Below are positions 15,070-34,311 of a DNA stretch of 55,722 nt, in pieces (within the stretch, counting starts at the first letter, position 1; every line of letters starts with the position of its first letter). The notes beneath the pieces are model-generated. The model searched no databases. It saw only the letters and a list, made by a program, of their open reading frames with translations, and was not told where the DNA came from. The DNA is from a virus (lineage: Duplodnaviria; Caudoviricetes). The translations under genes and the position numbers were made by a program. The stretch covers positions 1 to 55,722 of the IMG/VR virus record IMGVR_UViG_3300025065_000003; one strand, given 5' to 3'.

Positions 15070-15113
15070 GCAGCACCTCACGGTGGGGCAATTTAAAGGG
15101 TTATTGTAGCAGT

Positions 15114-15482
15114 TTACGGTGCTACTAACTGACGCTGCAGCCTGTCAGCGATGCGATGCATCTCGGCAGCAGTCTGAGCTTCACGGATTTCTTTTTTAGC
15201 TTTGATTCGTAGTAACTCCATTTGACTGATACGTTGCTGTCGTTCGTTATGCTGTATGAGCACGCTGTCGATTAGCTCATTTATGGGTTTATCGAGTAGC
15301 GCGGCTTCCGCTTCCAGCAGTTCACCTCCTCCTGCAACCGCCTCCTCTACTTTCTGTCGATAGATCAACTCCTGTGAGGCGTTTGTGTGTCTCGCTACTG
15401 CAATTGCATGGTCAACCAACGTTAAATGATGCTGCTCAGCAAGCTCGCGGTTGGCGTAAGTAGAAGCTTTCAAATTAGCCAA
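15114..15482 (-). CDS. Tail fibre-associated hypothetical protein
   Basis: 122 aa helical; directly downstream of the fibre accessory gene. Confidence 0.65.
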   Translation of the reverse strand: MANLKASTYANRELAEQHHLTLVDHAIAVARHTNASQELIYRQKVEEAVAGGGELLEAEAALLDKPINELIDSVLIQHNERQQRISQMELLRIKAKKEIREAQTAAEMHRIADRLQRQLVAP

Positions 15483-15849
15483 CAGTCACCTCCTCTGTGT
15501 AGTCTAAATATTCAACTAGACCACTTAGCCGGATTTGATATGTACCTGGCACGTCATAGCTTATCGACAAAGGCTCAGAATCGGTCACTGTACTAAATCC
15601 ATTTGTTTCAACGGTTAGACCATTTGGAAGCCCCGTAATTTCAACGACAAAGCCATCTACAGACATCTGATAAGCTAGTGGTTCTTTGGCTCTTACTTGC
15701 TTATCAGTCATATCAACAAAATGCGTCACTGGCGAAACATCCTCGGGTGCGATTGAATAGTCGCCAGATTGCGCATCCGCGTAGCGTTGACTTGGCGCGT
15801 CAAAAATCAGCGTAATTCCGCCCTTATCATCATAAAAAGCGAATCGCAT
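15475..15849 (-). CDS. Tail fibre-associated hypothetical protein
   Basis: 124 aa beta-rich; AAGGAG RBS; follows the long fibre gene. Confidence 0.65.
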   Translation of the reverse strand: MRFAFYDDKGGITLIFDAPSQRYADAQSGDYSIAPEDVSPVTHFVDMTDKQVRAKEPLAYQMSVDGFVVEITGLPNGLTVETNGFSTVTDSEPLSISYDVPGTYQIRLSGLVEYLDYTEEVTVG

Positions 15850-15861
15850 CTCGTCTCCTTG

Positions 15862-18800
15862 CTAGCGTTTTGTTACGAGCAGTACCAAGTTCCCTGCTTT
15901 TATTTGAACATTCGACGGGTCGTGTAACGTCGAGCTACCCGATGACCCCGAGGTTTTGCCCAGACGATACTGAAAATCAATGTGAGTCCCTGCGACTGGA
16001 AACCACGTAGTATCAATTTCCAGTAGCTTAGTCTCCCAATCCCCGACACCTTTGATAATCTGAGTACGATCCGAGCGCAACACGGAACCAGTTGCACGAT
16101 TCACTACACGTACTTCAATCGCAAAGCTGTCGGTGTTTGATGAACTCATCGCAGCAAATACGTCATAAGAGCTAAACACCACGCCATTAACATTACCCGT
16201 CCCAGGAGCTACTCGTCCCGTAGCGATACTGAAAAGCGTTGACCAGCTCACGTCGGACATGAAGGGGAGAGATATGCCGTGATCTGAGCTACCGAACTGA
16301 CGCTGTTGGAAATATGCCGATAGAGGTACTGTAACTGCCTCCCCCTTGATCTGCAGGGTGTCAACGTATGCGTCACCAGTAAAAATCTTATTTCCGTCGA
16401 TACGGGTGGAGTCGGGCCGCGTCCAGTCATCGGTGCGATTTTTTGCAGCTGCGCCGCTATTAGCGCGCGTAAGCACTAGGCCAGCTGTCGAGCCAGTTAG
16501 ATCCTCATAGACAATCGCGTCCTTGCCCGCTAACGCCCCTGCGCCCTGTACGTTTCCGATATTAACAACGCCATTAAACTGGCCTTGGTTAAACTCAACG
16601 TTTCCGTTTTGCCTGATACGCCAACCACTTTGGCCAGGAATGTAGTTACCTGACTGCACATCAGCATAGAAGCGCGCGGCTTCTGCCACGCTCAGGTTGG
16701 CAACGTCAATGGAATCAGCGCGGATCAGGCCGCCAACCGTGGTGACCGGCTCTTTAATGCCCGTGATGGGGTTCTCGAAAAAGAACTTACCGATGGATAT
16801 GGGGCCTAGCTGGCCTTCCTGAATAGAGGCGTCGCGGATCATGGCGTTGTCGATATAGACAGTGCCATCGTCAATAATGAACGGCTTTACTCTGTAGCCT
16901 GTTGCGTTGGTATCGGTGCGCCCCACCCAGAAGCGGTCTACATCAAAACCGGCATCTACAATTTCACCGTCGTTGAACAAACCAAAGCCACCAATCAGCC
17001 CATTTTCCTCAACCTTGGCAGTGAACAATGTTCCAATAGTATCTTCGACGGTGCCGATTTTAATCTCTACTTGCCCGGTCTGTGTTTCCACGCCTATCAG
17101 CCGCTGTAGCAGTGGCGGCTTATCGCCGGTTATATTGACGTTGGCTAAGTCGTAAACAAATTCTTCTGCCGTTCCCAGCGCTTCCAGCCGTTGACCCAGC
17201 GCTGTGTTGCCATCAATCGTCAGCTCAACAATGTTTTGGTAGCTGGTCGACAGATCACCGAGGCTCGCATCAATCGTATTGAATTGTTGAGCAATCGTAC
17301 TGCCGTCGCTCAGCTCAATGTTGGTGATGTTCTTAATATCCGCTTCGGCATCGCCCAGGCTGCCAGACAGCCGGTTAAGCTCTGTCAAAAGCGCGTCATC
17401 TTCGGTCAGATTAAGCGTCTTGATATTGATGATTTCGCCGGACGCATCGCCAATGCTGCCTTCCAGTGTTGTTAGCTTGGATAGCAGCACTGAGTCTGGG
17501 CTGATATCCAGGTTCTCAAGGTTGGTAATACGACCGTTGGCGTCCCCAACCTCTCCAGTCAGCTCAATAAGTCGGGAGCTGACAACCCTATCCTTTTCCA
17601 CCACCACATCGGTGATAGAGCGATACGCTGCCGATGACACATCGGTAGACGCCGCAATCACATCGTTGATAAACCCGTTAATCCGGTCATTCTCAACAAT
17701 CAAATCCGCTGCTTGGGTAATATCGCCCTCAGCACTGCCCACGCGACCCTCAAGCTGTGTAAGTGTGGTGGCCAGCACCGAATCAGGCTCAATGTTCAGT
17801 GTCTTAATATCCGTGATGCCGCCAGCCGCATCATCAACGTCGCCGCGTAACTCTGTTAGTGTGGTGGCCAGCACTGAATCCGAGGTGATGTTCAAATCCT
17901 GAAGGTCGACAATGCCGCCCTCAACATCGCCGATCTTGCCTTCAATCTCGCTGAGGCGCGACGCCAGTACGGAATCCTCGGCAATATCCAAGTTTTCGAT
18001 GTTGGTGATCTTGCCTTCGGCGTCTGTAACACTCGCCTCAATGCTACTGAACCGTGTTGCCAGCACTGATTCCGGATCAATATTGAGCTGCATAATATCC
18101 GTGACAGCGCCTTCGGCATCTTCGACGCGGCCTTCAATCGCCTCAACGTTGCGGGCCATTACCGCGTCTTTCTCGACCACCACTTCTTTGATCGACGTGA
18201 TCGTTGCAGCCGATGTGTCCACGTTGGCCTGCATTACCGTTTGAAGTAGGCCACGGAAATAGTCTTCCTCGGCGCGAGTTTCTGCCTCCTGCGTAATGCG
18301 GCCCTCGGTGTCGCCAACACCCGCCCACAAGTCAGTCACATCCTGAGCAAGCGCTTCCGTTTCATTGGCGCGCACCGTGCTCTCAAGCTGAATATCGGCT
18401 GCCAAGTCGCCCGTAGTTGCCGTCAGCGTCTGCACGTCCTTAGCAAGCGCCTGTGTATCCGTGGAAAGCGTCGTCTGCGTGTTCTGGATGTCGCTGATCT
18501 GCGTGTCGTACACCGATTGCAGATTGGTAATGTCTTCAGTCAGAGACTGTTCTGCATCGACAACCGCTTGCTGAATGTTCTCAATCTGCGCCGTAATCTC
18601 TGGAATCTCGGTGTTAGCCACCTCAACCAATAGACGATCCACTTTGACCGTGCCGCCGCCACCCGACGTATCGCCCCAAAGGACGATGTAATGATCCAGC
18701 CCCGGCGTATCTGGAACGTCAACAAGCGCTTCTTGGATAGCCCAAAGCGGTGGCGGAGTTTGCGTCTGCCAGCCAGAAAACCAGCCATCGGACGTTGCAT

Positions 18801-20373: not shown

Positions 20374-20383
20374 AATGTGTTTC

Positions 20384-22000: not shown

Positions 22001-22011
22001 CTTTCAGGCAT

Positions 22012-22032
22012 AAAAAAACCGCTCAAGGCGGT
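22012..22032 (-). terminator. Intrinsic terminator inside the late operon
   Basis: Minus strand ACCGC-cttga-GCGGT followed by a T run. Confidence 0.7.
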
Positions 22033-22058
22033 ATCGGGAGCAATGATTGCTGAACTGT

Positions 22059-22355
22059 CTAACTGAGGTATTTAGCCAGCCACCATGCTACTGCAGCACT
22101 CGCAACAGCCGGTGCCACCATATCCATCACCAAACTTTTAAATGACCACACGCGCGGATCAAAGCCACCCCACCACGGCATACTTGCCCTAGTGCCATTA
22201 CCTAGTGACTCAATCCAGCGGTACTCCGCCTGTGTCCATTCTCGGCTAGCCCATAGTGTTGCCATCACGGCCCAGGCCAGCACAGCATCGCCACCAGAGA
22301 ACAGAACCAGCATCACGACCAAACAACTGATAGGGAGGTGGGTGTATTTCACCAC
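22059..22355 (-). CDS. Small membrane protein in the fibre module
   Basis: 98 aa hydrophobic, Trp-rich (REWTQAEYRWI..MPWWGGFD). Confidence 0.65.
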   Translation of the reverse strand: MVKYTHLPISCLVVMLVLFSGGDAVLAWAVMATLWASREWTQAEYRWIESLGNGTRASMPWWGGFDPRVWSFKSLVMDMVAPAVASAAVAWWLAKYLS

Positions 22356-23055: not shown

Positions 23056-23062
23056 TCGCTCC

Positions 23063-24073: not shown

Positions 24074-24083
24074 ATCTCAACCT

Positions 24084-24617: not shown

Positions 24618-25318
24618 TACTGGCGAGTGCGTTGCGGATTGGAAGAATTGTCAGGTGCGTTGGGTGAGTTGTAGCGGTCAACCTCGACCTTCTGCCCCAA
24701 GGCACCCATGTAACTCTGCATGTGCATCTGCGCTCGGTTCAGGTTCGCAGCGTGCTCCGCGTCCTTGCTGTAGGCGCGATACAGAATGTAGTCAGTGATT
24801 ACCGGCGCATAGCTGTCATTCAACCGGATGCTTTCATTTTGCAGTCCGGTCAGTCCCAAACTGACATCATGCGGCGTTGGTGTGGATGAGTAGATCACCT
24901 CAACCTCGGCCAGCGCATCAGCAGGCGGATACACATAGAACCGCGTCGGGTCTTGGTCATCGAACACATACTGCTCGATATTCACGCTGGTTTCGTCAGC
25001 GTGCCAGCCCCGGCGAGTGGTATCCAGCGCACGGCGAGTCGTCACCAGGATGCCCAACTTGTCACTCGTTGCGGCTGTGTTGCGCACAACGTCGATCAGG
25101 CGCAAACCATCCTGCGGGATTTCTTGCCGCGTCCCCTCCACAAGCTGCATGGTGGCGTTGATGGAGCTGGCATCCGGCTTGATCTGAACAATGGCCTGAT
25201 ACGACTCGTTCAGCCAGCCAATCAGCTCTTCGTTTGTCCAGCGCGTACCGGCTGCAGTAACTTCCTGCAAAACCAGTTTAGCGTTGTTGATTACCGTACC
25301 GACGGTCGTAACGGCCAT
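24617..25318 (-). CDS. Head-tail adaptor protein (DUF6682-like)
   Basis: RWTNEELIGWLNE..FYVYPP..DYILYRAYSKD. Confidence 0.7.
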   Translation of the reverse strand: MAVTTVGTVINNAKLVLQEVTAAGTRWTNEELIGWLNESYQAIVQIKPDASSINATMQLVEGTRQEIPQDGLRLIDVVRNTAATSDKLGILVTTRRALDTTRRGWHADETSVNIEQYVFDDQDPTRFYVYPPADALAEVEVIYSSTPTPHDVSLGLTGLQNESIRLNDSYAPVITDYILYRAYSKDAEHAANLNRAQMHMQSYMGALGQKVEVDRYNSPNAPDNSSNPQRTRQ

Positions 25319-25321
25319 GGC

Positions 25322-25642
25322 TTATACCTCCTGCATGTAACGGTTTTTAGCCAAGGCAGCCGTCCACGGGAAGATTCGCCCGTTCTTTAAGTGCTTGAGC
25401 ATTCGGCCCTTGTACTTCGGTTTTTCAGGCTCGACAGCTTCGCTCGGCGCTTCACCAGTGCCTAGCTCGCCCTCTTCCGTTACGCCTTGCTCTGCCAGAG
25501 TTTCAGCAGATTCGAGAAGCTCGGCGCGAATCGTCTCAACGCCTTGGCGCTTATTGATCTCAACGCCTAGCTTCTCGGCAATTGGTTCCAGGTCGTCTTT
25601 GGTAACCGCTTCTTCGATCTGATCAATTAGTGTCTTGGTCAT
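25322..25642 (-). CDS. Small acidic protein downstream of the capsid gene
   Basis: TKDDLEPIAEKLGVEINKR resembles a Rho-N/HeH-type helical motif. Confidence 0.7.
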   Translation of the reverse strand: MTKTLIDQIEEAVTKDDLEPIAEKLGVEINKRQGVETIRAELLESAETLAEQGVTEEGELGTGEAPSEAVEPEKPKYKGRMLKHLKNGRIFPWTAALAKNRYMQEV

Positions 25643-25663
25643 GCGTGTTTCCTCACGGAAAGT

Positions 25664-25688
25664 AAAACGCCACCCCGAAAGGTGGCGT
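25664..25688 (-). terminator. Terminator after the major capsid gene
   Basis: Minus strand ACGCCACCT-TTCG-GGGTGGCGT followed by TTT. Confidence 0.8.
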
Positions 25689-25699
25689 AGATAGCGAGC

Positions 25700-26641
25700 T
25701 TAGCCGCGCTCGGCGTACAGATGGCCCATGGCGTTGGGGTCAATGACCTCATAGCCAAAGACGTTGAGCCCGCGCACCAGCTGGCCGAAATCAGTCGGGT
25801 TAGGCAGGTTCTCCATCTTGGTCATCTGCGACGCAAAAGTGAGCGCCTTCTTGTGACCAAAGATCGCGTTCGTAGCCTGCCGCGTGGTGGTGGCGTCAGT
25901 CACTTTCGACATGTTGTTGCTGATATACACGTCGAAGCGGTCGAGCATGCCGACTTTGCCGTTACGAAATACCGAGGTGTTATCACCCATGGCACTCGCG
26001 TCTCGCAGGTCGGACTTTTTGAGCATGCCGTTCATCCACGCAGGGAGAACGATCCAGCGGCCGTCATCGGGCACGTTCTGCTCATCGAGTACCGAACCAC
26101 AATCCACCAGCACATCGAGGATGTTGGTTTTGTCCACGGATACCGGCGCTCCCGCCTCGCCCATGTTGTACCCGCCAGACTCACGGCCAGCGGCAGCACC
26201 TGCGTTCTCTGCGGCTGCATCGGCAAACACGTCGCCGAGAATCACCTTGTCGATGGCGATCTTCATCTGCTGACCAGCATCGTCCGACCAGTTATCCATC
26301 AACTTGATATCGGCTTGATACTCGTCAACGTCGTTCACCTCGAAGGCAAAATACTTCGCCTTGTCGATGTGCAGCTCGACCTTGTCGCTGGTCGGCTTCT
26401 CGTAGTTGAGACCGCCGCCAACTTCATAGTCGCGGATGGTGATAGACGGCGTAGTGCGGATCATCACCGTGTCGCCTTGCGACTTGATCTCACCCTCGTA
26501 GTCAGTGTTCGAGATTTCAGCGAAACAGGTTCGCTGATACAGCTTTTCGACCATCTTTCCCGACCAGACCTGTGGGATGAACCCAGAGGCGGACGTGCTG
26601 GAATAGTCGGGATGTGATGCGTCGCGTGTTGGACCTGCCAT
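25700..26641 (-). CDS. Major capsid protein (HK97 fold, P22-coat-like family)
   Basis: FIPQVWSGK..YEGEIKSQGDTVMI..G(K)VGMLDRFDVYISNN; follows the scaffold gene. Confidence 0.9.
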   Translation of the reverse strand: MAGPTRDASHPDYSSTSASGFIPQVWSGKMVEKLYQRTCFAEISNTDYEGEIKSQGDTVMIRTTPSITIRDYEVGGGLNYEKPTSDKVELHIDKAKYFAFEVNDVDEYQADIKLMDNWSDDAGQQMKIAIDKVILGDVFADAAAENAGAAAGRESGGYNMGEAGAPVSVDKTNILDVLVDCGSVLDEQNVPDDGRWIVLPAWMNGMLKKSDLRDASAMGDNTSVFRNGKVGMLDRFDVYISNNMSKVTDATTTRQATNAIFGHKKALTFASQMTKMENLPNPTDFGQLVRGLNVFGYEVIDPNAMGHLYAERG

Positions 26642-26692
26642 TGGAATAACCTCTTATCGCCTCACGGCGAGGAATCGGAACCGCCAGCCGGG

Positions 26693-27613
26693 TTATCGAA
26701 CCCGGCCTTCACGTTGGGCGGCGAATATGTCGGCTTCCAGGCGTTGCGCTTCGTCAGCGGAGTAGCGGCCAGCGGTCTTGTCACGATAGAACTGGGTAAT
26801 GTCGGCACCCGTCCACAGCCGCCCGCCTTGTGCTTGCGGCGTTGGGGCTGCTTTCGTGGTGCGCGGTTCTACTTGCTCATCGGGGACTTGGCGCTGCTGC
26901 TGCGTTGGCTTCGCTTGGTTCAGATAGAGCTTGAAAACGTCAGCCACCCCTTTCGCGTCTAGCGACTGCTGCGCCTGACTGAGTGCCTGTTGGTACTGCT
27001 TGCCCGTTTGTGGATTGAACGTGCTAAGGAATTGCAGGAACGCCGGTTCGCTATTGATCTGCTCGTAGTTGGGCACCGCTTGCTCTAACCCGATCCAGAA
27101 CCGCGCTTCTGCATCCTCTTGCTTCTCGGATTCGAGACGCTCAAGGCGTTGCGCAATCTCTGTATTGGGCTGCTGCTGGGAGCCACTTAACCGCATCATT
27201 AGCGATACAAGGTCGTCGCCATACTCTTCTTTGTAGCGAGCTAGCTCTTCATCGCTTACACCTGGCAGCGATTGCTTAGGCGCGTCGGGTGCTTTGCTGG
27301 CATCGGCTAGCTGCTGCTTTAGCTGTTCGTTCTCTTTACGCAGTGCCGGAACTTCGGTGTCGTACTTTCCGCGAATGACGTTAAAGCGGTGTTCCCAATA
27401 CAGAGCATCTTTTGCCTCTGTTTTGGGTTCGACTTTCGGCGGCTCGGCGGATTGCGTATCGGGTTTGTCAGTGTCCGGCTTCTCAGCGTCGCGTGGCGGG
27501 TTTTGCTCGCTGTCAGGAGCCTTCGCTTTGTCGGCGTCGGGATTCTCTGGTTCGCGGTCAAAGTGCTGTGCGGCGGCGGCAACTTGCGCCTGAACGGACT
27601 GGGGTAATGACAT
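26693..27613 (-). CDS. Capsid scaffolding protein
   Basis: Charged, helical; GKYDTEVPAL; C-terminal IFAAQREGRVR; lies between portal and capsid. Confidence 0.8.
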   Translation of the reverse strand: MSLPQSVQAQVAAAAQHFDREPENPDADKAKAPDSEQNPPRDAEKPDTDKPDTQSAEPPKVEPKTEAKDALYWEHRFNVIRGKYDTEVPALRKENEQLKQQLADASKAPDAPKQSLPGVSDEELARYKEEYGDDLVSLMMRLSGSQQQPNTEIAQRLERLESEKQEDAEARFWIGLEQAVPNYEQINSEPAFLQFLSTFNPQTGKQYQQALSQAQQSLDAKGVADVFKLYLNQAKPTQQQRQVPDEQVEPRTTKAAPTPQAQGGRLWTGADITQFYRDKTAGRYSADEAQRLEADIFAAQREGRVR

Positions 27614-27714
27614 TTCAACTCCTATGACGCCTCACGGCGTGTCTGTGAGCCGGACTTAGCCGGGGTTCACGATTCGGGTAACGGGTTCAACCTGCAGTGC
27701 TGAGCGTTGCCCAC

Positions 27715-27742
27715 AAAAAAGCCGCCTCCGGAGAAGCGGCTT
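27715..27742 (-). terminator. Intrinsic terminator
   Basis: Minus strand AAGCCGCTTC-tccg-GAGGCGGC followed by TTTTTT. Confidence 0.75.
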
Positions 27743-27766
27743 GCTTGTGAGGCCGGACGCATCCGG

Positions 27767-27991
27767 CTATTTAAAGCGCGTGTCGATAACATCACGCGCG
27801 GTTTCTAACTTTTCGATAAGGCCCGCTAGTGCAGTGGCCTCGCCCTGCTTACGCGCTAACTCTGTGCTATCGCGGCATTGCTCCAAGTGGTTGCGACAAT
27901 CCTCGCGCAGGAACTTGAGCATTTCCAATAGGTGCTTGCCGTCCTGACTGCTGTTGATTCGCGACAGGGCTTTCCACTGCTGCTCGTTCAT
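27767..27991 (-). CDS. Small portal-adjacent protein (Bbp19-like)
   Basis: GAGG RBS; RKQGEATALAGLIE motif; overlaps the portal 3' end by 125 nt. Confidence 0.75.
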   Translation of the reverse strand: MNEQQWKALSRINSSQDGKHLLEMLKFLREDCRNHLEQCRDSTELARKQGEATALAGLIEKLETARDVIDTRFK

Positions 27992-30122
27992 TTGCACCTC
28001 TCTGGGTTTCGGCTATCAACTTGGCAATCTGTGCTAGCAAGTGTTGGGCATCCAGCGGTGCCATTTGCTGAGCTATCTGGGTTTCGGCTTGGGTTTCAGC
28101 AGCGTCGGCACCGTACTTCTGTGCCTGCGCCTGCTTAACTGCCACGTCGGCTTGGGCCTTGGCTTGCTCGATCTGTTGCTGGGCTTCTAGCTGCGCTTGT
28201 TGGGCCTGCTGCTGCTTGGCCAGGTTCTGCTCCATTTGCTCTTGCGTGGGGATCAGGCCGGGCATATCCAGCTTCTCGGCAACGCTATCCAGCAGCTTGC
28301 GTCGACCTTCCATGCCCACGATGCCCATATCCATTTCATTCTGAGTGAGCTGTAAGAACTGCTGGCGTAGCATGTTGGTCTGTTCGCGTATCAGCATGGC
28401 TGAGCTACCGCGCGCGACGACATTACAGTCACCCTTGATGCTTGGGTCTTCGCTGTACTGCATGTTGTAAAGCCAAAGCGCCTCAATCACGCGGCGCATC
28501 ACACCACGGTCAATGTGCCGGATGGCGTCTTTAATCCCCTTATTTGCGGATTCCATGAGCATCGATAGGCCGCTCGCCGTATTACCAGCGCCGCCTACGT
28601 TCTCATTGCCATAGGTGTAGCGCGGAATATTGGTCGCATCATCGGCGCGGCGCTCGAACTGCTCATAAACGGACAACAATTCAGCCGCGTTACTACTCGG
28701 CTGATAAAAGCGGATCGCGGGATTGTTACCAGTGACCTGACTGTCTTTAGTACGCCAGATTTTCCAGGGGTAGATGTTGGTCGGGTCTTCTTGCGGCTGC
28801 AGGCGGTCTTCGTAGACCTCCACCTGCGGGCCGGATGAAATAGCGAGGTTGTTCACCAGGCTGCGCGCCGTGGCGTTGCACACGTCCTGAACATCCGCCA
28901 TCAGCTCAGGGATACTCTGCCCCCAGAAGCTGCCCGGCACCGGCTGGTAGCTCGCCTTGTGGTATGGCCGACGCTCCAACGGATCACGGTTAATGCGCAC
29001 GCGGATAACGTGCTGACCAATCAAGATGGCCTCAATCTCATACTCTGCCAGCGGGTCTTCAATATCGTCAGGGTTAACGCCCCACTGCAGCAGCGTCACG
29101 CCTTGTGCACCACCAGAATAAATAAGGCCATCGATGGTTTCGCCGTGGGTCAGCCATTCATGGCCACGCCCTTCTAGCTCGGCACGCTCGCCATCTGTCC
29201 ATAGCCAGTCGCGTAAGCCGCCTTGGCCATACTGCTCCAGCACCCGGCGGATGGCTTCTTCGTCGAACGACGGCACTCCGACCAGCTGGTTGAGCTGCAT
29301 GCGCGTGAAGCGTGCGCGCTCGATGATGAACGCGCCGTCATCCACGTTGGTGGCGTCAGGGCTGGGGTACATATCGAACGGCGACACGCGCTCAAACTCA
29401 GGCCGAATAGTCGTGCTCTTGACCGGCTGCCAGCCTTCTAGCCACTCCAGTGTAGGCACGCGTCGCAGGATGGGTGCGCGCACAAACGCAGCGGGATAGG
29501 TGACAAAATCGTCAACGAACTGCTCAAACGCCTCACTCCAGCCGCCCTCGGCTAGCTGGTCGGCAATCACGTCTTCATGGCGTTCGGCGGCCTCTTCGGC
29601 CTTCTCTTGCGCCATTTGCCGGACTTGTTCACGCGCCTGCTCAATCAGTGCCGCCATATCCACCTGCTGGCCCTGCTGCTGCGCCTGCATGGCTTGCTGC
29701 TGCATCTGCTGGAATACAGGGGCAACGTACTCGTCGGGCACGTCTGCCACTGGTGTAGGTTGCAAGCCCCACGGCTGCTCATTGGCAGGCATCATAATGT
29801 CGCGAATCCAAGCACCGGCGGCGCGGCACTTGGTGGCCGTCAACATCATGTAAATCTCGGCACCGCCTTCCTTACGAATTGCAGCCAGCTTGTTAGGGTC
29901 GTACTCACCTTTGCGACGACGCAGACAATCCAACAGTCGGTATTCAACCTCTTGCTTGGCTGTCTTTGCGGATTCCCACGACCGGCGAATGTGCGCGCCC
30001 AGCGACGACTCCATGAGCTGACGACGGCGCTCCTCCTCGGCCTGCATTTGTTGTGCTTCAGCCGCTTGCTCAGCGTGCATCTCAGTCGCCGACTTGTACT
30101 GCAGCAGTCCCAAACTAGCCAT
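27867..30122 (-). CDS. Portal protein (P22-like, long Q-rich barrel)
   Basis: About 750 aa following the terminases; RVSPFDMYP, GSFWGQSI, TASGLSML motifs. Confidence 0.9.
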   Translation of the reverse strand: MASLGLLQYKSATEMHAEQAAEAQQMQAEEERRRQLMESSLGAHIRRSWESAKTAKQEVEYRLLDCLRRRKGEYDPNKLAAIRKEGGAEIYMMLTATKCRAAGAWIRDIMMPANEQPWGLQPTPVADVPDEYVAPVFQQMQQQAMQAQQQGQQVDMAALIEQAREQVRQMAQEKAEEAAERHEDVIADQLAEGGWSEAFEQFVDDFVTYPAAFVRAPILRRVPTLEWLEGWQPVKSTTIRPEFERVSPFDMYPSPDATNVDDGAFIIERARFTRMQLNQLVGVPSFDEEAIRRVLEQYGQGGLRDWLWTDGERAELEGRGHEWLTHGETIDGLIYSGGAQGVTLLQWGVNPDDIEDPLAEYEIEAILIGQHVIRVRINRDPLERRPYHKASYQPVPGSFWGQSIPELMADVQDVCNATARSLVNNLAISSGPQVEVYEDRLQPQEDPTNIYPWKIWRTKDSQVTGNNPAIRFYQPSSNAAELLSVYEQFERRADDATNIPRYTYGNENVGGAGNTASGLSMLMESANKGIKDAIRHIDRGVMRRVIEALWLYNMQYSEDPSIKGDCNVVARGSSAMLIREQTNMLRQQFLQLTQNEMDMGIVGMEGRRKLLDSVAEKLDMPGLIPTQEQMEQNLAKQQQAQQAQLEAQQQIEQAKAQADVAVKQAQAQKYGADAAETQAETQIAQQMAPLDAQHLLAQIAKLIAETQRGANERAAVESPVANQQQSGRQAPIGNAQVPARGLSQPLGAMPR

Positions 30123-30564
30123 TAGCAGCACCCTGCGTTAGCGCGCGGTAGATAGCGGCATCGGCAGCGCGCTTATGGGTGCGCATCCGCTGCACGTTTC
30201 GGCGCATCGGGCCTAGCTGCTTAAAGAGATCGGTCACGTAGCCAGCGGGATCGTCTAAGAACTCAAGCAGCTTGACGTTAAATGTCACGCCCATATTGCC
30301 CTCAACTTCAAACTGCAGGCGCATGCCTGGCTCTGGCGTCGTAACCTTCTCCTCGATAATGATCATATCGATTTGCACGTTGCCAACGTCGGGACGGAAA
30401 CGCTTTGAGGGAATTGGGATGCCGTGCTTCATCAACTCCTGCGCCATGCCCATGGCGGCATCGCGCGCGAACTTTTCAATCTCACGGCTTTGCAGGCCTG
30501 CTAGGCGCAATGCTGCCGTTCGGGCGCGCTGCTGCTGCGAGCCGTTCGGGGTGGTGTGAATCAT
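30115..30564 (-). CDS. Hypothetical protein between terL and portal
   Basis: 149 aa; GGAGG RBS inside a hairpin; overlaps the portal start. Confidence 0.7.
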   Translation of the reverse strand: MIHTTPNGSQQQRARTAALRLAGLQSREIEKFARDAAMGMAQELMKHGIPIPSKRFRPDVGNVQIDMIIIEEKVTTPEPGMRLQFEVEGNMGVTFNVKLLEFLDDPAGYVTDLFKQLGPMRRNVQRMRTHKRAADAAIYRALTQGAANG

Positions 30565-30584
30565 AGCGCCTCCCGGCGGGGTGA

Positions 30585-32180
30585 TTAGGTGTGTGCGCTC
30601 CAGCCACCGCGTGACGAGCGGTTAGCGGGTGTGGCGGGCAGTTGCGCCCTTGCAAACAGTGATGAGCGAGCGAGGGTTTCAAGCGCCTTGGCACCGTGAG
30701 ACGCCCAGTCATGTCGAGGTGTTGACTTGTACACGCCGCGTTTGTCGTCCCATTCCTTGCGGTAGTTATCGAGGCATAGCACGCCCTGGTGGCAGGCTTC
30801 CTCGTCTATCCAGCACATCGGCAGGAACTGGCGCGTGGCCTGCACGCCCTCGGCGTGGTTACTAATGCGTGGCACCGTCTCAAAATTGATGCCAAAGCCC
30901 TTGGCAACATCGGAACGACTCAGGCCAGTGCCTAGCTCTCTAACCGCCAGATCGTGCGGGCCAAAGTGGCCACCGTAGCGATAGCCTTTCTTGTTGAGCA
31001 GGTCGGCGTAGTATTCGATGCCCTCGCCCTCGCCTTCCAGATAGTCGACAAGATGCACTTCACGCCCAACGACTTGAGCAAACCAAATCGCCATGGTGTC
31101 GTTCATGCCCAAGTCCCAGCCGGTATAAACCGGCAGGCTTGGATTAACCTGCACCTCACTGGTAAGCCGCTTATTCTTGCGCAGGTGCTGCATTTGTGTA
31201 GCGAAGTACGCGCCTTCTACTGACTGACTGAACGCCTCCTCTGGTGTGCTGGGGTACTCGCGCTGCATGTCATCCTGCAGCACCTCAGACTTCTTGGCAT
31301 ACCAGGCGCGCTGGCCGTCAGTCGTCTGAATGCGGTGCTTATGCTCTAGCTGCTCAAAATATTCGTTTAGCCGCTGCGGTATCACCACGCCTTTAGGATC
31401 GAGCGTATACGCTGACTCTTGCCACCAAGGGAAGAAATGAAACTGGAAGTCCATCGAAGTGGGGTTTCGGCCTTGATCCTGCAGTTGGCGGGCTGACTCG
31501 CAATAGCTGAAAAAATAGCCTTCACGTCCTTCGGCTGTTGATTCCAGCGTTATCTGATTACCCAGCCCAACAGCTTCAAACGCGCCGGTGACGATCTCTT
31601 GTGCTTTGTGTGGGAACTGGCGGCATATCTTGCCGAACTCCGATACGTGCAGGCGCTGCAGCGTGCCGCCACGATAAGACGTGCTGACCCGAATGCTTGA
31701 GCCATTATCGAAGACGTAAGCACCGCTGCCGCTTTTATCGCTCGACGGCTTAGGAAACCTCAAGCCGATCATGTCGAAGATGGCGAGCCATGCATCGCTG
31801 ACATTTTGGTATGCAAACGTGATCTTGTTCCTGAATATATCCTGTGCGTCATCGAGCTTGTGACAGATGCAGCCAGCGCTGAAATTATCGATGAACAAGC
31901 AGTCATCCAGGGCGTCGATCATTTCAAAGGTCGTGAAGCCAAGCTGCCGGGCTTTCAGGATAATGTCGCGGCAATGCCGGTTGATATAACGCTCTCTCTG
32001 CGCATCGTTCGGTGTGAACACCTGAACGCGACCATCCTTATCTTTGATCTTGTACAGCGCGCAGATACGAAACCACTTGAGCGCCAAGGCCTCGACCAAA
32101 TCAGCCTTTTCAGTCAGGCGGCCTTTCTCAAGTGCTCGCAAGTACGCATTAGCGCGCTTAATTTCTTCTGCTCGCGTCAT
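30585..32180 (-). CDS. terL: Terminase large subunit
   Basis: Walker A ILKARQLGFTT, Walker B LHVSE, coupling motif ESTAEG, nuclease GWDLG. Confidence 0.95.
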   Translation of the reverse strand: MTRAEEIKRANAYLRALEKGRLTEKADLVEALALKWFRICALYKIKDKDGRVQVFTPNDAQRERYINRHCRDIILKARQLGFTTFEMIDALDDCLFIDNFSAGCICHKLDDAQDIFRNKITFAYQNVSDAWLAIFDMIGLRFPKPSSDKSGSGAYVFDNGSSIRVSTSYRGGTLQRLHVSEFGKICRQFPHKAQEIVTGAFEAVGLGNQITLESTAEGREGYFFSYCESARQLQDQGRNPTSMDFQFHFFPWWQESAYTLDPKGVVIPQRLNEYFEQLEHKHRIQTTDGQRAWYAKKSEVLQDDMQREYPSTPEEAFSQSVEGAYFATQMQHLRKNKRLTSEVQVNPSLPVYTGWDLGMNDTMAIWFAQVVGREVHLVDYLEGEGEGIEYYADLLNKKGYRYGGHFGPHDLAVRELGTGLSRSDVAKGFGINFETVPRISNHAEGVQATRQFLPMCWIDEEACHQGVLCLDNYRKEWDDKRGVYKSTPRHDWASHGAKALETLARSSLFARAQLPATPANRSSRGGWSAHT

Positions 32181-32719
32181 CGCTCGGAGCGCACCTCTTT
32201 CAACAGGTCAGCAAGGCTTTTGCCAGCGTTATGCTCATGCTCGTGCTTTTCAGCCCACTGGCCAAGCTGTTTGCCCATGTGCTTACCGATCAACTCTAGC
32301 GGCCTGATCTTGTCAATCATCTTGATCTTGTGCAGGTACTCAACTTCAGGCTCCTCGCCTTCCTGGCCTGGAATCATCTTCGTGACGACTTCAATGCTTT
32401 GCACTGCAGCTGCCGTATCGTCATCCAGATCGTGAACAGCCTTCAATCGTCCGTCAGGCGTGAACAGCTTTCGGACATCAGACATACCCATACGCGCAAG
32501 TTGCAAAACCACTTCGTCAGCAGTGATCTGCGTGCGATTTGAGCGGCCATTCATGCGCTCTTGAATAGCGCTTTGGATTTCAACATTTTTCAACAAGCGC
32601 TGGCCTTGCGAGTATGCTGTTTTCTCGCTGTAGTCAGCCCTTATCGCCGCTTGCGTGGCATTTAGGTCAACGAGGTACTCATCGACGAAGCGAGACTGTT
32701 TTTCTGTTAACTTCGCCAT
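32177..32719 (-). CDS. terS: Terminase small subunit
   Basis: LTEKQSRFVDEYLVDLNATQAAIRADYSEKTA (Terminase_2 family). Confidence 0.95.
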   Translation of the reverse strand: MAKLTEKQSRFVDEYLVDLNATQAAIRADYSEKTAYSQGQRLLKNVEIQSAIQERMNGRSNRTQITADEVVLQLARMGMSDVRKLFTPDGRLKAVHDLDDDTAAAVQSIEVVTKMIPGQEGEEPEVEYLHKIKMIDKIRPLELIGKHMGKQLGQWAEKHEHEHNAGKSLADLLKEVRSER

Positions 32720-32747
32720 AAAAAAACGCCGCCATTACTGGCAGCGT
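32720..32747 (-). terminator. Terminator-like hairpin immediately before the terS ATG
   Basis: Minus strand ACGCTGCCA-gtaa-TGGCGGCGT-TTTTTT-ATG. Confidence 0.7.
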
Positions 32748-32767
32748 CTCCATAGAATAGGGGCCGG

Positions 32768-32932
32768 ACGCTTCACAGCGTGCGGCGGGTGTCGGTAGTG
32801 TCGGCGGTGCTTCACAGCATGGCGTGACTACCTCCCCCATCTAACGGTCAGGGGTATCCGAGATGGATCACCTCCTACGCTGGCGGGGATTCGGTGCAAC
32901 GCTTCACAGCGTGGCGTGTCGCCTCACGGCGA
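32768..32932 (-). repeat. Cluster of four GUGA-tetraloop hairpins in the holin-terS intergenic region
   Basis: Copies at 32768, 32808, 32899 and 32919; stems ACGCT/AGCGT, TGCT/AGCA and TCGCC/GGCGA. Confidence 0.85.
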
Positions 32933-32939
32933 GAACCGG

Positions 32940-33404
32940 TTATTGCTTTGGAATCTGTTGATAGATGCCCTGCTGGGCTTTGGCCTGCTCACGGGCCACT
33001 TGCCCGCTTTGCCACGTTGAAATGCCTCGCTCAGCCGTCTGGCCAGCAATATAGCCACCTACGCCCAACGTCATTAAATTCCAGAGCGCGTCGGGTAATG
33101 GCAAGGTCAAACCCACGCCAAACATGGCTGATAGATACGGCGCAATTAGGTAGTTGTTGGCCACGATAGCCACAATCGTAAGCATGAGAATCGGGCGCCA
33201 GTTGCGTTGCAGCCAGCTTTCTCCAGCCGCTTCTGCCAATATCACCTGCATTTGGCTTTTGAGAGCGCTGTTCTCGGCATCAATCAACTGCGCCTGAATT
33301 TCATGCTTGAGGCGCGCTGCTTCGTCTTTGTCAGTGACTGCCTTGTCGATCACGCTGAACAGCGGACCGGTAATCACCGATAACGCTTTAGCTGCAATGC
33401 TCAC
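32940..33404 (-). CDS. Holin (3TM/GTA-type holin family)
   Basis: EAAGESWLQRNWRPILML..LGVGGYIAGQTAE. Confidence 0.8.
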   Translation of the reverse strand: MSIAAKALSVITGPLFSVIDKAVTDKDEAARLKHEIQAQLIDAENSALKSQMQVILAEAAGESWLQRNWRPILMLTIVAIVANNYLIAPYLSAMFGVGLTLPLPDALWNLMTLGVGGYIAGQTAERGISTWQSGQVAREQAKAQQGIYQQIPKQ

Positions 33405-33706
33405 TGCATAGTCTCCAGCGCCGACACACGGCTGTTCAGGTTGTTGATGCGGCTCTCGATCTCGTCAAGCTCACGGCGTGCATCAGTAGCGCGGTAATAG
33501 GTATCACCCCAGCTTTTAAGCTCCTGGCGCATTTCTTGGAGCATTAAGCCCTGCATGGTTAGCCGCTCTTCTAAAACGACTGACTGCTGCCCCAGCTTCA
33601 CTAATTCAGAGCCAGCCCAAATAATTAGCGCTACCAAGAGCACCTGTATGCCTGTCTGCATATGCCGCTCGAATACGGATGGTTTCACGTCGCGCTCCTG
33701 GGGCAT
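33401..33706 (-). CDS. Lysis-module membrane protein (one TM plus coiled coil)
   Basis: Lies between endolysin and holin; TM IQVLLVALIIWAG. Confidence 0.65.
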   Translation of the reverse strand: MPQERDVKPSVFERHMQTGIQVLLVALIIWAGSELVKLGQQSVVLEERLTMQGLMLQEMRQELKSWGDTYYRATDARRELDEIESRINNLNSRVSALETMQ

Positions 33707-33720
33707 TACGCCGCCTCCCA

Positions 33721-34071
33721 TTACCAGCGTGCCGGGCCATTGGAACGCGTATCAACGTGGGTAAACGTCGAGTAGCGACCGAGGCTAGCGGAGGGAAAGT
33801 TGGCGGCAAGCCAGTCGTAAACGGCATCAGGTTCAACGCCGACAACGCGAATATCAGCAGCGCGGCCAAACGTGTGCTGGCTGTTAGGCGCGCCGCCTAC
33901 ACGGCGGTTGTAATCTGGGCAACGGCAGCCGCTATTGATGATCACCGGTTTGCCGAAGTGAGTGCGCACGGCCTCAAGGATACTCAAGGTATCAGTATCA
34001 ACCGTGTCAAAGCCGCATCCGCAATTACATGCAAACTCGGAACGGCTGAAATGCTCACTAATGCGGCTCAT
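33721..34071 (-). CDS. Endolysin, peptidase M15 family
   Basis: HFSRSEFAC..INSGCRC..N..VGGAPNSQHTFGRAADI..FTHVDTR. Confidence 0.92.
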   Translation of the reverse strand: MSRISEHFSRSEFACNCGCGFDTVDTDTLSILEAVRTHFGKPVIINSGCRCPDYNRRVGGAPNSQHTFGRAADIRVVGVEPDAVYDWLAANFPSASLGRYSTFTHVDTRSNGPARW

Positions 34072-34103
34072 ATAGGACTCCGACGCTTCACAGCGTGAGA
34101 AAG

Positions 34104-34180: not shown

Positions 34181-34224
34181 ATAAACACGGAGGCCCCGCC
34201 AGAGGCTGGCAGGGCCTTAAATGG

Positions 34225-34251
34225 AAACGCCCCGGCTCGGAAGCCAGGGCG
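34225..34251 (-). terminator. tR'-like hairpin downstream of the late promoter
   Basis: Minus strand CGCCCTGGCT-tccg-AGCCGGGGCG followed by TTT. Confidence 0.55.
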
Positions 34252-34271
34252 CAGAATCTGATAGTGGAGTC

Positions 34272-34300: not shown

Positions 34301-34311
34301 TTTTTAAACAA

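What the first reader, a model, noticed from the sequence alone, without database searches (positions are those of the whole stretch)
15074..34096. Dispersed GNRA (GUGA) tetraloop hairpin family at late-gene starts: candidate RNA-level late regulon
Seen in sequence (late, minus strand): ten hairpins share the loop GUGA (one has GGGA) on different but fully paired stems. ACGCT/AGCGT at 34083, 32899, 32768; TCGCC/GGCGA at 32919, 26657; ACGCC/GGCGT at 27627; TGCT/AGCA at 32808; TTTCC/GGAAA at 25648; CACC/GGTG at 15074; CGCC/GGCG at 30567. All are intergenic. Six lie 2-15 nt before the start codons of the endolysin, the terL-portal gene, scaffold, capsid, the post-capsid gene and the DDxxD gene, and in three of these the GAGG RBS is inside the hairpin. 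Stem covariation with a fixed loop points to selection on RNA structure. Inference: binding sites for a phage translational regulator or boxB-like antiterminator (lambda boxB adopts a GNRA-like fold), or mRNA processing/stability signals.
Basis: partly seen in the sequence, partly recalled or inferred. Interest (0 to 1): 0.8.

Follow-up and report, generated by a model that had tools for sequence, protein, structure and literature searches.

The report
GNGA-tetraloop hairpins before phage late genes
A temperate phage of salt-loving bacteria places a small RNA hairpin with an almost fixed four-base loop just upstream of the ribosome-binding sites of many late genes; related and unrelated prophages do the same, which resembles the tetraloop hairpins between phage T4 genes, but what reads the hairpin is unknown.

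Summary
The 55.7-kb phage genome has 13 perfect GTGA-loop hairpins on the minus strand and none on the plus strand (shuffles: mean 0.92, maximum 4). Ten of 12 in the minus-strand gene block are intergenic. Eleven form a family: 5'-C, 4-5 bp variable stem, Y-GNGA-R.

In 95 related loci the hairpins lie on the coding strand (182 against 12 distinct contexts). They keep their place before the same genes, change stems by compensation, and vary only loop position 2 (66 GNGA, 1 AAGA, 0 GNAA). The sampled Halomonas chromosome is not enriched. Prophages with unrelated head genes also carry the family, and no protein is shared by all carriers.

So this is a transcription-oriented RNA element, mostly in late genes. 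I read it as a start-associated intercistronic hairpin acting on translation initiation or mRNA stability, read by host machinery. It is a GNGA counterpart of the T4 C(UUCG)G hairpins and a structural counterpart of mycobacteriophage SAS. The boxB reading fails on boxA and on position.

The parts
42538..42549 (-). Hairpin GCCU.GUGA.AGGC, between the cro-like gene (42562-42789) and an RHH-like gene (ATG about 42500).
   Evidence: 16.5 bits. The same hairpin is at the same place in G306, and the word CCGTGAGG is there in G305 and G307.
34083..34096 (-). Hairpin ACGCU.GUGA.AGCGU, 7 nt after tRNA-Met and 11 nt before the ATG of the Peptidase_M15 endolysin gene, the first late gene.
   Evidence: 22 bits; -9.1 kcal/mol. 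Relatives carry CGCC.GUGA.GGCG or CUGUC.GUGA.GACAG in front of a first lysis-region gene.
32919..32932 (-). Hairpin UCGCC.GUGA.GGCGA, first of four in the 220-nt leader before terS.
   Evidence: Clusters of 2-5 such hairpins occur in relatives and in unrelated prophages.
32899..32912 (-). Hairpin ACGCU.GUGA.AGCGU, second of the terS-leader cluster.
32808..32819 (-). Hairpin UGCU.GUGA.AGCA, third of the cluster.
32768..32781 (-). Hairpin ACGCU.GUGA.AGCGU, fourth of the cluster, followed by a terminator-like hairpin that abuts the terS ATG.
30567..30578 (-). Hairpin CGCC.GGGA.GGCG, 2 nt before the ATG of the 149-aa gene between terL and portal. The SD-like GGGAGG lies inside the hairpin.
   Evidence: 18 bits. 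A GGGA hairpin is found before this gene in 8 of 15 distinct orthologous upstream sequences.
27627..27640 (-).
   Evidence: Orthologous position in 35 distinct upstream sequences: GUGA 11, GAGA 9, AAGA 1, with stems ACGCC and GCGCC exchanged by compensation.
26657..26670 (-). Hairpin UCGCC.GUGA.GGCGA, 15 nt before the major capsid gene ATG.
   Evidence: Orthologous position in 46 distinct upstream sequences: GUGA 13, GCGA 6, GAGA 4. The Pseudomonas-prophage clade has ACGCC/GGCGU.
25648..25661 (-). Hairpin UUUCC.GUGA.GGAAA, 5 nt after the post-capsid terminator-like hairpin and 5 nt before the next ATG. The SD-like GAGGA lies inside the hairpin.
   Evidence: Orthologous position in 38 distinct upstream sequences: GUGA 11, GCGA 4, with stems UUUCC and UUACC exchanged by compensation.
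15074..15085 (-). Hairpin CACC.GUGA.GGUG, 4 nt before ATG 15069. The SD-like GAGGUG lies inside the hairpin.
   Evidence: Relatives have CACC, AGCC or UACC stems before similar tail-region genes.
34191..34300 (-). Context: late promoter-like boxes TTGACC-17-CATACT, then two terminator-like hairpins upstream of tRNA-Met. This is a Q-type late-operon layout.
   Evidence: These are consensus matches only.
32730..32746 (-). Context: terminator-like hairpin with a U-run abutting the terS start.
25667..25688 (-). Context: terminator-like hairpin after the capsid gene. In the window its loop is read as UUCG or, with a G-U pair, UUUCGG; relatives have UUCG or UCCG tetraloops. This is a different loop class from the start-associated hairpins.

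Best explanation
The hairpins are transcribed, cis-acting RNA elements. Each has a variable 4-5 bp stem, a Y-R closing pair, a GNGA tetraloop (usually GUGA) and a conserved unpaired C on the 5' side.

They stand at the 5' edge of the translation-initiation regions of selected, mostly late, cistrons, and in a cluster in the leader of the packaging and head operon.

I think they most likely act after transcription on the downstream cistron. They would fix the local fold around the Shine-Dalgarno sequence. After cleavage of the long late transcript in the pyrimidine-rich single-stranded spacer upstream, they would also give the downstream mRNA a 5'-proximal hairpin that slows decay.

Shown: the family, its strand, its positions, its covariation, its loop rule, and that it is specific to phages. 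Inferred: every step of function.
For: 1. The enrichment is real and intergenic.

2. Orientation follows transcription. Covariance-model hits split 208 on the coding strand against 13 on the other in 50 loci, 982 kb. Distinct GTGA contexts split 182 against 12. The lone opposite-strand hairpin in G303 and G304 precedes a gene of that strand.

3. Base pairing is selected. In 24 distinct rows, pairs 2-5 are paired in 100% of cells, 4 of 5 pairs show changes on both sides, and 26 cells carry double changes against 6.7 in shuffles (0 of 500 shuffles as high). That alignment was fitted to the structure. Gene-anchored sets, which were not fitted, show the same: ACGCC to GCGCC, UUUCC to UUACC, UCGCC to ACGCC.

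4. Placement is tied to starts. Of 254 distinct GNGA hairpins outside long frames, 135 end 0-20 nt before the start of an ORF of 50 codons or more. The hairpin usually lies 1-4 nt before the SD or contains it.

5. More distant relatives keep a hairpin at the pre-scaffold position with other loops of 5-6 nt, so the fold there is older than the loop.

6. Two late gaps pair an upstream hairpin (over a stop codon, or a terminator) with a short pyrimidine-rich spacer and then the GNGA hairpin. This is the layout expected for intercistronic processing. That expectation is from recalled general knowledge and was not tested.

7. No protein is shared by all hairpin-bearing phages, and the sampled host DNA does not use the element.

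8. Precedent: short C(UUCG)G-capped hairpins are common in intergenic regions of T4 and other phages, and one at the 5' end stabilises T4 gene 32 mRNA (passages of PMC8948821, which cites Tuerk 1988 and Gorski 1985).
Against: Stability alone does not explain the sequence rules. At four gene-anchored sites the loops are 66 GNGA, 1 AAGA and 0 GNAA, although the third base may be A in a GNRA fold (recalled). The closing pair is Y-R in 172 of 182 contexts. An unpaired C six bases before the loop is present at 11 of 11 window sites and in 78% of 247 distinct contexts. Terminator-like hairpins of relatives carry UUCG or UCCG tetraloops instead. These rules point to a specific reader of some kind.

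Stems of 4-5 bp (-4.4 to -9.3 kcal/mol) are weak for blocking nucleases.

No 5' ends, half-lives or translation data exist. The RNA runs found hold only assembled contigs of relatives.

The cluster of four hairpins in one leader is not explained by a role at a single start codon.
Confidence: 0.42

Rival explanations
1. The hairpins are binding sites for a dedicated sequence- and structure-specific RNA-binding protein, or a specific endoribonuclease, encoded by the phage or the host. It sets translation or decay of the marked cistrons. This would be a true post-transcriptional regulon, in the manner of coat-protein operators or T4 RegA.
For: The loop rule is G-N-G-A, with 0 GNAA among 67 gene-anchored hairpins. 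The closing pair is Y-R in 172 of 182 contexts. There is a conserved 5' unpaired C. In three window sites the SD lies inside the hairpin, so a binder would block initiation. The loop class differs from that of the terminators of relatives. The same element occurs in phages with unrelated head genes.
Against: No candidate was found. No ORF of G303 has a tblastn hit (E<=1e-3) in more than two of G305, G306, G307 and the window. No window protein has a hit in all five genomes G303-G307. Within 10 kb either side of the capsid gene, no gene is present only in hairpin-rich loci. Pfam and PHROGs show no RNA-binding family among the proteins scanned, which were 40 submissions covering 39 distinct ORFs and not the whole proteome. 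The sampled host chromosome has no matching set of sites. Small, fast-evolving peptides would escape these searches.
Confidence: 0.27
2. The hairpins are boxB-like recruitment sites for an N-type processive antiterminator, or they modulate Rho loading on the C-rich leader. Either would let RNA polymerase read through the internal terminators of the long minus-strand operon.
For: The hairpin has a 5-bp stem and a GNRA-type loop. One conserved hairpin sits exactly between cro and the next gene, the nutR position. A cluster of four lies just upstream of the terS terminator-like hairpin, and others lie near internal terminators. The spacers in the cluster are C-rich and G-poor. The phage does carry an exact boxA-type word in its pL-like transcript.
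Against: No boxA-type word with 3 or fewer mismatches lies near any hairpin, and the pL-side boxA has no GNGA hairpin beside it. Ten of 11 sites lie in a late operon that has a Q-type promoter-terminator layout. One or two sites per operon should suffice for a processive factor, yet the sites keep a tight distance to start codons. One hairpin lies downstream of its nearest terminator (25648). No N-like protein was found: the arginine-rich ORF 47030-47230 has no homologue even in the close relative G306.
Confidence: 0.1
3. The element works at the DNA level. It would form a hairpin in the non-template strand of the transcription bubble (ops/RfaH-like) or in single-stranded DNA during replication or packaging, and be read by a DNA-binding factor.
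For: At 12-14 nt it would fit a transcription bubble. A non-template-strand hairpin has the same sequence and orientation as the RNA, so all the strand and covariation data fit equally well.
Against: Duplex-DNA recognition is excluded, because the arms differ completely between sites while staying complementary. The loop varies as an RNA GNRA loop does at position 2. The position is tied to the SD and start codon rather than to promoters. Pfam found no polymerase domain in the 2941-aa virion protein (InPase, ART, LPD38 only) or in the other proteins scanned. The 216-nt leader is kept next to an unrelated terS in another prophage, so it is not a terS-specific packaging site.
Confidence: 0.06
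4. The family is a by-product with little function: a short stable palindrome that spreads by duplication and recombination between prophages and is tolerated only in untranslated gaps.
For: Three window copies are identical (ACGCU.GUGA.AGCGU). The cluster travels as a mosaic module: there are 5 differences in 216 nt next to replaced flanking genes. The same first two cluster hairpins occur in L128 and L189.
Against: Orthologous sites persist down to about 72% capsid identity with compensatory changes and a conserved loop rule. Spacing to the SD and start codon is constrained. Strand bias is extreme. Three other gene junctions in the same loci never acquire a hairpin: 0 GNGA among 59, 48 and 37 distinct upstream sequences of the adaptor, portal and terL genes.
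Confidence: 0.07

Closest known systems
Intercistronic C(UUCG)G hairpins of phage T4 and other phages (Tuerk et al. 1988, seen only as cited and summarised in passages of PMC8948821; the original is not held)
   Same: Many copies of a short, perfectly paired stem of variable sequence, capped by one fixed, very stable tetraloop with a C-G closing pair. They lie mainly in intergenic regions on the sense strand. One such hairpin at a 5' end stabilises T4 gene 32 mRNA.
   Different: The loop class here is GNGA, not UUCG; in this lineage UUCG or UCCG loops cap the terminator-like hairpins of relatives instead. The host phage is temperate and lambdoid/P22-like, in Halomonadaceae. Placement is tight, 1-15 nt before the SD or start. 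There is a conserved 5' unpaired C. A cluster of 2-5 copies lies in the packaging-operon leader.
Start-associated sequences (SAS/ESAS) of Cluster K mycobacteriophages (PMC3203893, passages read)
   Same: A phage-specific, one-orientation, dispersed element a few bases upstream of the start codons of a subset of genes. It is kept across subclusters before genes of different families and is essentially absent from the host genome. Its function and reader are unknown, and a role in translation initiation was proposed.
   Different: SAS is a 13-nt conserved sequence that contains the SD. Its authors found little support for RNA hairpins, and it marks non-structural genes. The present element is defined by structure plus loop, its stems vary, and it marks mainly late and structural genes.
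boxB of lambdoid nut sites (recalled knowledge; no paper read)
   Same: A 5-bp stem capped by a GNRA-type fold in an untranslated stretch. One copy here occupies the nutR position after cro.
   Different: The loop is a true tetraloop with G at position 3, not a purine pentaloop. There is no adjacent boxA. There are 10 copies in the late operon and none in the pL-like transcript. No N-like protein was found.
RNA-phage coat-protein operators and T4 RegA or gene 32 operators (recalled; the T4 review PMC3014915 was searched for five hairpin terms and gave nothing relevant)
   Same: A small hairpin or site at or overlapping the SD and start codon, through which a protein could repress translation. 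In three window sites the SD lies inside the hairpin.
   Different: Those operators are single sites with a known binder. Here there are 11 sites per genome and no binder is known.

Membership tests
lambdoid nut-site boxB | Short (about 5 bp) stem capped by a loop with a GNRA-type fold, in untranslated RNA | tested here: met
   Stems are 4-5 bp with GNGA tetraloops and are intergenic. The loop is a tetraloop, not the pentaloop of known boxB (the pentaloop is recalled).
lambdoid nut-site boxB | boxA element a few bases upstream in the same transcript | tested here: not met
   Of the 15 matches to the boxA-type 13-mer with 3 or fewer mismatches, none lies beside a hairpin. The only exact copy is at 45831-45843 on the plus strand.
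lambdoid nut-site boxB | One site each just downstream of the two early promoters | tested here: not met
   One site follows cro (42538). There is no GNGA hairpin in the pL-like leader. Ten of 11 sites lie in the late operon.
lambdoid nut-site boxB | Cognate small N protein with an arginine-rich motif | tested here: inconclusive
   No family hit. The ORF 47030-47230 has an arginine-rich N-terminus but no homologue in G303-G307. Small peptides can escape BLAST.
T4-type intercistronic extra-stable tetraloop hairpins | Short perfect stem of variable sequence with a fixed stable tetraloop and a C-G closing pair, in many copies | tested here: met
   Eleven copies in the window. The closing pair is C-G in 139 and U-A in 33 of 182 contexts. 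Folding energy is -4.4 to -9.3 kcal/mol.
T4-type intercistronic extra-stable tetraloop hairpins | Loop UUCG | tested here: not met
   Loops are GNGA: 66 of 67 at gene-anchored sites. UUCG and UCCG tetraloops occur on the terminator-like hairpins of relatives.
T4-type intercistronic extra-stable tetraloop hairpins | Predominantly intergenic, on the sense strand | tested here: met
   Ten of 12 in the minus block are intergenic. Model hits split 208 against 13 by strand. Of 200 distinct GTGA hairpins, 174 lie outside long open frames.
Cluster K start-associated sequences (SAS) | Conserved 13-nt asymmetric sequence that includes the SD core | tested here: not met
   Stems differ completely between sites. 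Only the loop, the closing pair and a 5' C are conserved.
Cluster K start-associated sequences (SAS) | Lies a few bases upstream of start codons, in one orientation, and is rare in the host genome | tested here: met
   Distances are mostly 3-15 nt. The host sample is not enriched.
Cluster K start-associated sequences (SAS) | Restricted to the non-structural half of the genome | tested here: not met
   Here 10 of 11 sites lie in the lysis, packaging, head and tail region.
Any Rfam family | Match at the family's gathering score | tested here: not met
   Only tRNA-Met matched in the whole window. Elements of 14 nt are below what most models can score.
REP/BIME-type host repeats | Many copies spread through the host chromosome's intergenic regions | tested here: not met
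   In 400 kb of the genome held as Halomonas sp. H2 there are 17 GTGA hairpins on both strands, rank 84 of 256 loops. Of 11 perfectly paired CGCYGTGARGCG words in that genome, 5 lie in its 21-kb prophage locus; 5 of the other 6 are antisense inside long ORFs.
ops/JUMPstart (RfaH) non-template-strand hairpin | Read as DNA in the paused transcription bubble by a NusG paralogue | not testable with these tools
   Sequence alone cannot separate an RNA hairpin from a non-template DNA hairpin. No NusG-like family was seen among the proteins scanned.

The most novel reading that the evidence does not exclude
The GNGA hairpin with its 5' C is an address tag on late mRNAs, read by a specific partner that is not yet known.

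The partner could be a small protein of the host or the phage. It could also be an RNA receptor, for example a helix of 16S rRNA on the 30S platform into which the tetraloop docks.

Docking rules for GNRA loops depend on the third and fourth loop bases and little on the second (recalled). That is exactly the pattern of conservation seen here.

Such a tag would give unrelated temperate phages of Halomonadaceae, Pseudomonas and relatives a shared, portable way to load ribosomes on chosen cistrons or to time their translation. That would be a new kind of translation-initiation signal.
Probability: 0.2. Interest if true: 0.85.

Novelty: new variant of a known kind. Interest (0 to 1): 0.55.

Why it matters
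Dispersed short elements next to start codons are among the least understood features of phage genomes. For both T4 UUCG hairpins and mycobacteriophage SAS, function and reader are still largely unknown.

This family is unusually clean. It has a simple rule (C, 4-5 bp, Y-GNGA-R) and strict orientation. Its orthologous positions stretch over wide divergence, and it is present in prophages with unrelated structural genes.

This makes it a good system for asking how long late transcripts are divided into units of different expression, for example scaffold and capsid against portal and terminase.

If a specific reader exists, it would be a new post-transcriptional control layer of temperate phages. 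The hairpin would then be a compact, portable part for tuning expression in Halomonas, which is used as an industrial chassis (that use is my own knowledge, not checked here).

Tried and rejected
Nucleotide searches of GenBank phages gave no match: megablast with 25300-34400 and blastn with the terS leader. The capsid's nearest cultured relative, Rhizobium phage RHph_TM3_14A (47% identity), has no such family and no pre-capsid hairpin in the 18.8 kb read.

Rfam found only tRNA-Met.

Candidate binders by co-occurrence: none.

An N-like reading of ORF 47030-47230 was dropped, because the ORF has no homologue even in G306.

An N4-like idea, hairpin promoters read by a virion polymerase, was dropped. 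The 2941-aa protein shows InPase, ART-PolyVal and LPD38 domains only, the sites precede late rather than early genes, and the phage has cI/cro and a host-type late promoter.

An attenuator idea was dropped. It held that the 3' arm of the last cluster hairpin pairs with the 5' arm of the terS terminator. That pairing is absent in relatives whose last hairpin has CGUC/GACG arms, such as L010 (reading).

I guessed that the one host site outside long ORFs (L263) was rRNA. Rfam at E<=0.001 gave no match, so I withdrew the guess.

Most of its 80 listed loci were chance matches: 17 of 80 held two or more GTGA hairpins on either strand, and about ten of these were clear carriers.

The same pattern matched 12 of 301 genomes of the family of G001, against 2 for the control pattern. 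Only about half of those matches look like true clusters.

RNA evidence was not obtained. All runs found hold assembled contigs only, with a 5-11% share of sampled words. They represent relatives mostly below 90% identity, and may contain DNA. One metatranscriptome contig (X10, record 4) begins at 27617, which is 10 nt after the pre-scaffold hairpin and 4 nt before the ATG. A contig end from a single study shows no RNA end, so I do not count it.

Literature: four searches found no description of GNGA or GUGA hairpin families in phage late operons. PMC2864571 was seen only in the search listing. Supplementary files were not opened, and none bears on a claim made here.

I did not use structure prediction, complex prediction, the protein-atlas search or the large protein searches, because no candidate protein justified them.

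Full report
**What the window is.** The window is a whole virus record of 55,722 bases.
- It has a lambdoid layout. A cI-like repressor lies on the plus strand (42860-43648). A cro-like gene (42562-42789) heads a long minus-strand block with an O-like initiator, DnaB, NinB, an HNH gene and RusA.
- Next come promoter-like boxes TTGACC-17-CATACT with two terminator-like hairpins (34191-34300) and tRNA-Met (34104-34180).
- A 2941-aa polyvalent protein follows further on.
- Relatives found through the capsid protein are prophages of Halomonas, Vreelandella, Chromohalobacter, Salinicola and Bisbaumannia. At 66-73% capsid identity they are prophages of Pseudomonas and Neptuniibacter.

**The observation.**
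- Among 236 perfect tetraloop hairpins with stems of 4 bp or more, 13 have loop GTGA on the minus strand and none on the plus strand. No other loop exceeds 5. Dinucleotide shuffles give 0.92 on average and at most 4 in 300 trials.
- With my own gene model, 5.7% of the minus-strand block is intergenic. Ten of 14 intergenic sense GTGA words are in hairpins, against 2 of 193 coding ones and 0 of 116 antisense ones (p = 2e-12).
- An eleventh member, 42538-42549, lies between cro and the next gene.
- A covariance model built from the 11 sites ranks them first in the window. The next hit scores 16.1 bits, on the other strand inside a gene.
- Late gaps of 20 nt or more carry a hairpin in 7 of 9 cases, early gaps in 1 of 8.

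**Anatomy.**
- The stem has 4 or 5 pairs of variable sequence. The pair next to the loop is C-G (139) or U-A (33) in 182 distinct contexts.
- The loop is GUGA, and once GGGA.
It is present at 11 of 11 window sites (reading) and in 78% of 247 distinct contexts. The opposite position is G in only 11%, so this C is not part of the helix.
- Predicted energies are -4.4 to -9.3 kcal/mol.
- The hairpin ends 2-15 nt before a start codon at six window sites. An SD follows within 1-4 nt, or the only SD-like GAGG is formed by the last two loop bases and the 3' arm.

**Relatives.**
- Eighty viral contigs and 15 named genome contigs encode a capsid at 52-99% identity.
- On their coding strand there are 182 distinct GTGA hairpin contexts against 12 on the other strand. 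GAGA (46 against 6) and GGGA (36 against 13) are also biased. GNAA loops are not clearly enriched (GCAA 49:18 and GAAA 37:14, perhaps terminators; GTAA 12:19, GGAA 12:14).
- The covariance model finds 221 hits at E<=10 in 50 loci (982 kb), 208 of them on the coding strand.
- On the 24 distinct rows of the 150 best hits, pairs 2 to 5 are always paired and four of five pairs show changes on both sides. There are 26 double-change cells against 6.7 in shuffles (0 of 500 as high). This alignment was fitted to the structure.

**Gene-anchored test, not fitted to any structure.** I took the sequence upstream of each orthologous start codon.
- Before the scaffold gene, 21 of 35 distinct sequences have the hairpin 12-14 nt from the ATG. 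Loops are GUGA 11, GAGA 9 and AAGA 1. Stems are ACGCC or GCGCC.
- Before the post-capsid gene, 15 of 38 have it. Loops are GUGA 11 and GCGA 4. Stems are UUUCC or UUACC.
- Before the 149-aa gene, 8 of 15 have it, all with GGGA.
- Before the capsid gene, 23 of 46 have it. Loops are GUGA 13, GCGA 6 and GAGA 4. The stem is UCGCC in the Halomonadaceae clade and ACGCC in the Pseudomonas clade.
- In sum there are 66 GNGA loops, 1 AAGA and no GNAA.
- As controls, the junctions before the adaptor, portal and terL genes have no GNGA hairpin in 59, 48 and 37 distinct sequences.
- More distant relatives keep a hairpin before the scaffold gene with loops of five or six bases, so the fold at that site is older than the GNGA loop.

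**Phage or host?**
- In the genome held as Halomonas sp. H2, 5 of the 11 perfectly paired CGCYGTGARGCG words lie in the 21-kb prophage locus. Five of the other six are antisense inside long ORFs.
- In 400 kb of that chromosome, GTGA ranks 84th of 256 loops.
- The element therefore belongs to the phages, not to the host's own messages, as far as sampled.

**Not tied to one gene set.**
- A pattern scan turned up hairpin clusters and start-associated hairpins in contigs whose portal is only 27-28% identical (L128, G305). It also found them in contigs with no homologue of any window late protein (G303, G304).
- In G303 and G304 one hairpin lies on the other strand, directly before a gene of that strand. 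Orientation therefore follows transcription, not the genome.
- No ORF of G303 has a tblastn hit in more than two of G305, G306, G307 and the window. No window protein has hits in all five. Within 10 kb of the capsid gene, no gene tracks hairpin presence.
It argues against a conserved phage-encoded reader, though small peptides could be missed.

**What it is.** The arms differ completely between sites while staying complementary, so recognition of duplex DNA is excluded. The hairpin forms within one strand, and that strand is always the sense strand. An RNA hairpin is the simplest reading. A non-template DNA hairpin in the transcription bubble cannot be excluded from sequence.

**How it may work.** Three facts favour a role at the start of the downstream cistron:
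- the tight spacing to the SD and start codon;
- the choice of cistrons, namely the first gene after the tRNA, the genes after internal terminator-like hairpins, and scaffold and capsid;
- the two-hairpin gaps, in which an upstream hairpin over a stop codon or a terminator is followed by a short pyrimidine-rich spacer and then the GNGA hairpin.

By analogy with the short C(UUCG)G hairpins of T4, I take the most likely function to be punctuation of the late transcript. One of those T4 hairpins stabilises gene 32 mRNA from its 5' end (passages of PMC8948821). The hairpin would fix the fold around the SD and protect the 5' end of a processed downstream message.

The weakness of this reading is the sequence rule. 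Position 3 of the loop is never A, the closing pair is Y-R, and the 5' C is conserved. In relatives the terminator-like hairpins carry UUCG or UCCG tetraloops. These facts suggest that something reads the hairpin specifically. I therefore give the intrinsic or host-machinery reading 0.42 and a dedicated binder or nuclease 0.27.

**boxB.**
- The resemblance is real: a 5-bp stem, a GNRA-type fold, and one copy at the nutR position, conserved in G306 and partly in G305 and G307.
- Membership fails, however. No boxA lies near any hairpin, while the one exact boxA-type word (45831-45843, plus strand) has no GNGA hairpin beside it.
- Ten of 11 sites lie in an operon with a Q-type layout. Their spacing to start codons is also not expected of a recruitment site for a processive factor.
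- I keep antitermination or Rho modulation at 0.1, mainly because of the unexplained four-hairpin cluster in a C-rich leader just before a terminator-like hairpin.

**Comparison and novelty.** The closest known things are the T4-type intercistronic tetraloop hairpins and the start-associated sequences of Cluster K mycobacteriophages. The first shares the kind of object but has a different loop and looser placement. The second shares the placement, orientation, phage-specificity and open question, but is a conserved sequence and not a hairpin (PMC3203893). Four literature searches, Rfam and two nucleotide searches of GenBank phages gave no description or match. I class the finding as a new variant of a known kind.

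**Limits.**
- Gene models are my own ORF choices.
- Distinct contexts in relatives are not independent events.
- The host background is one genome, 400 kb of it in detail.
- No experimental RNA data could be used: the runs found hold contigs of relatives only.
- Function is inferred throughout.

Noticed in passing
window 45831-45843 (+), with promoter-like boxes at about 45758-45790: There is an exact 13-nt boxA-type word (the only exact copy; 15 matches at 3 or fewer mismatches against 16.9 expected) in the leader of the plus-strand, pL-like operon. It is followed by a larger hairpin but by no GNGA hairpin. This suggests a Nus-dependent antitermination site unrelated to the hairpin family.
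   Followed up: partly
window 32721-32936: Contigs of runs X5 and X7 keep the terS leader, with its four hairpins and a 13-nt complement of the 16S 3' end, almost unchanged (5 differences and 1 gap in 216 nt). On either side, terS (766 letters) and, in X5, the holin-side gene (564 letters) are replaced by unrelated DNA (in X7 the contig diverges at that point). The leader behaves as a mosaic module independent of terS identity.
   Followed up: partly
window about 27645-27662 and 26675-26700; relatives: A second hairpin class lies upstream of the GNGA hairpins, and the hairpin loops hold stop codons. The forms are CCGGC-N4/5-GCCGG before the scaffold gene and CCGGGUU-CGAU-AACCCGG at the scaffold stop. 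Relatives show compensatory changes, for example G to A with C to T in L028.
   Followed up: partly
window 25667-25688, 27719-27742, 22018-22032, 32730-32746: There are internal terminator-like hairpins inside the late operon. In relatives, the one after the capsid gene carries UUCG or UCCG tetraloops, a loop class kept separate from the GNGA hairpins.
   Followed up: partly
window about 26672-26680 and orthologous gaps: The word GATTC in the pre-capsid gap is kept even in relatives that lack the GNGA hairpin. It resembles the recalled RNase E preference (R-A-U-U-W), but this was not tested.
   Followed up: no
window 42174-42500 (-): The gene after cro encodes a 108-aa protein. Judged by eye it looks ribbon-helix-helix-like, with a basic N-terminus; PHROGs gave no hit. 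It has homologues of 38-46% identity at the same place in G305, G306 and G307, each preceded by the hairpin or by the word CCGTGAGG.
   Followed up: partly
window 34104-34180 (-) and 66-154 (-): tRNA-Met lies between the late terminators and the first late gene, 7 nt before a GNGA hairpin. tRNA-Ser lies at the left end beside the integrase gene (521-1612) and is possibly the attachment site.
   Followed up: no
L263 (G001:C1:151456-152467): This is the one perfect CGCCGTGAGGCG hairpin of the sampled Halomonas chromosome that is not inside a long ORF. It has no Rfam match and its nature is unknown.
   Followed up: partly
L011:8975-8990 (approximately, pre-scaffold site): This is the single exception to the loop rule: ACGCC.AAGA.GGCGU, with the first loop base changed, in a close relative (94% scaffold identity).
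   Followed up: no
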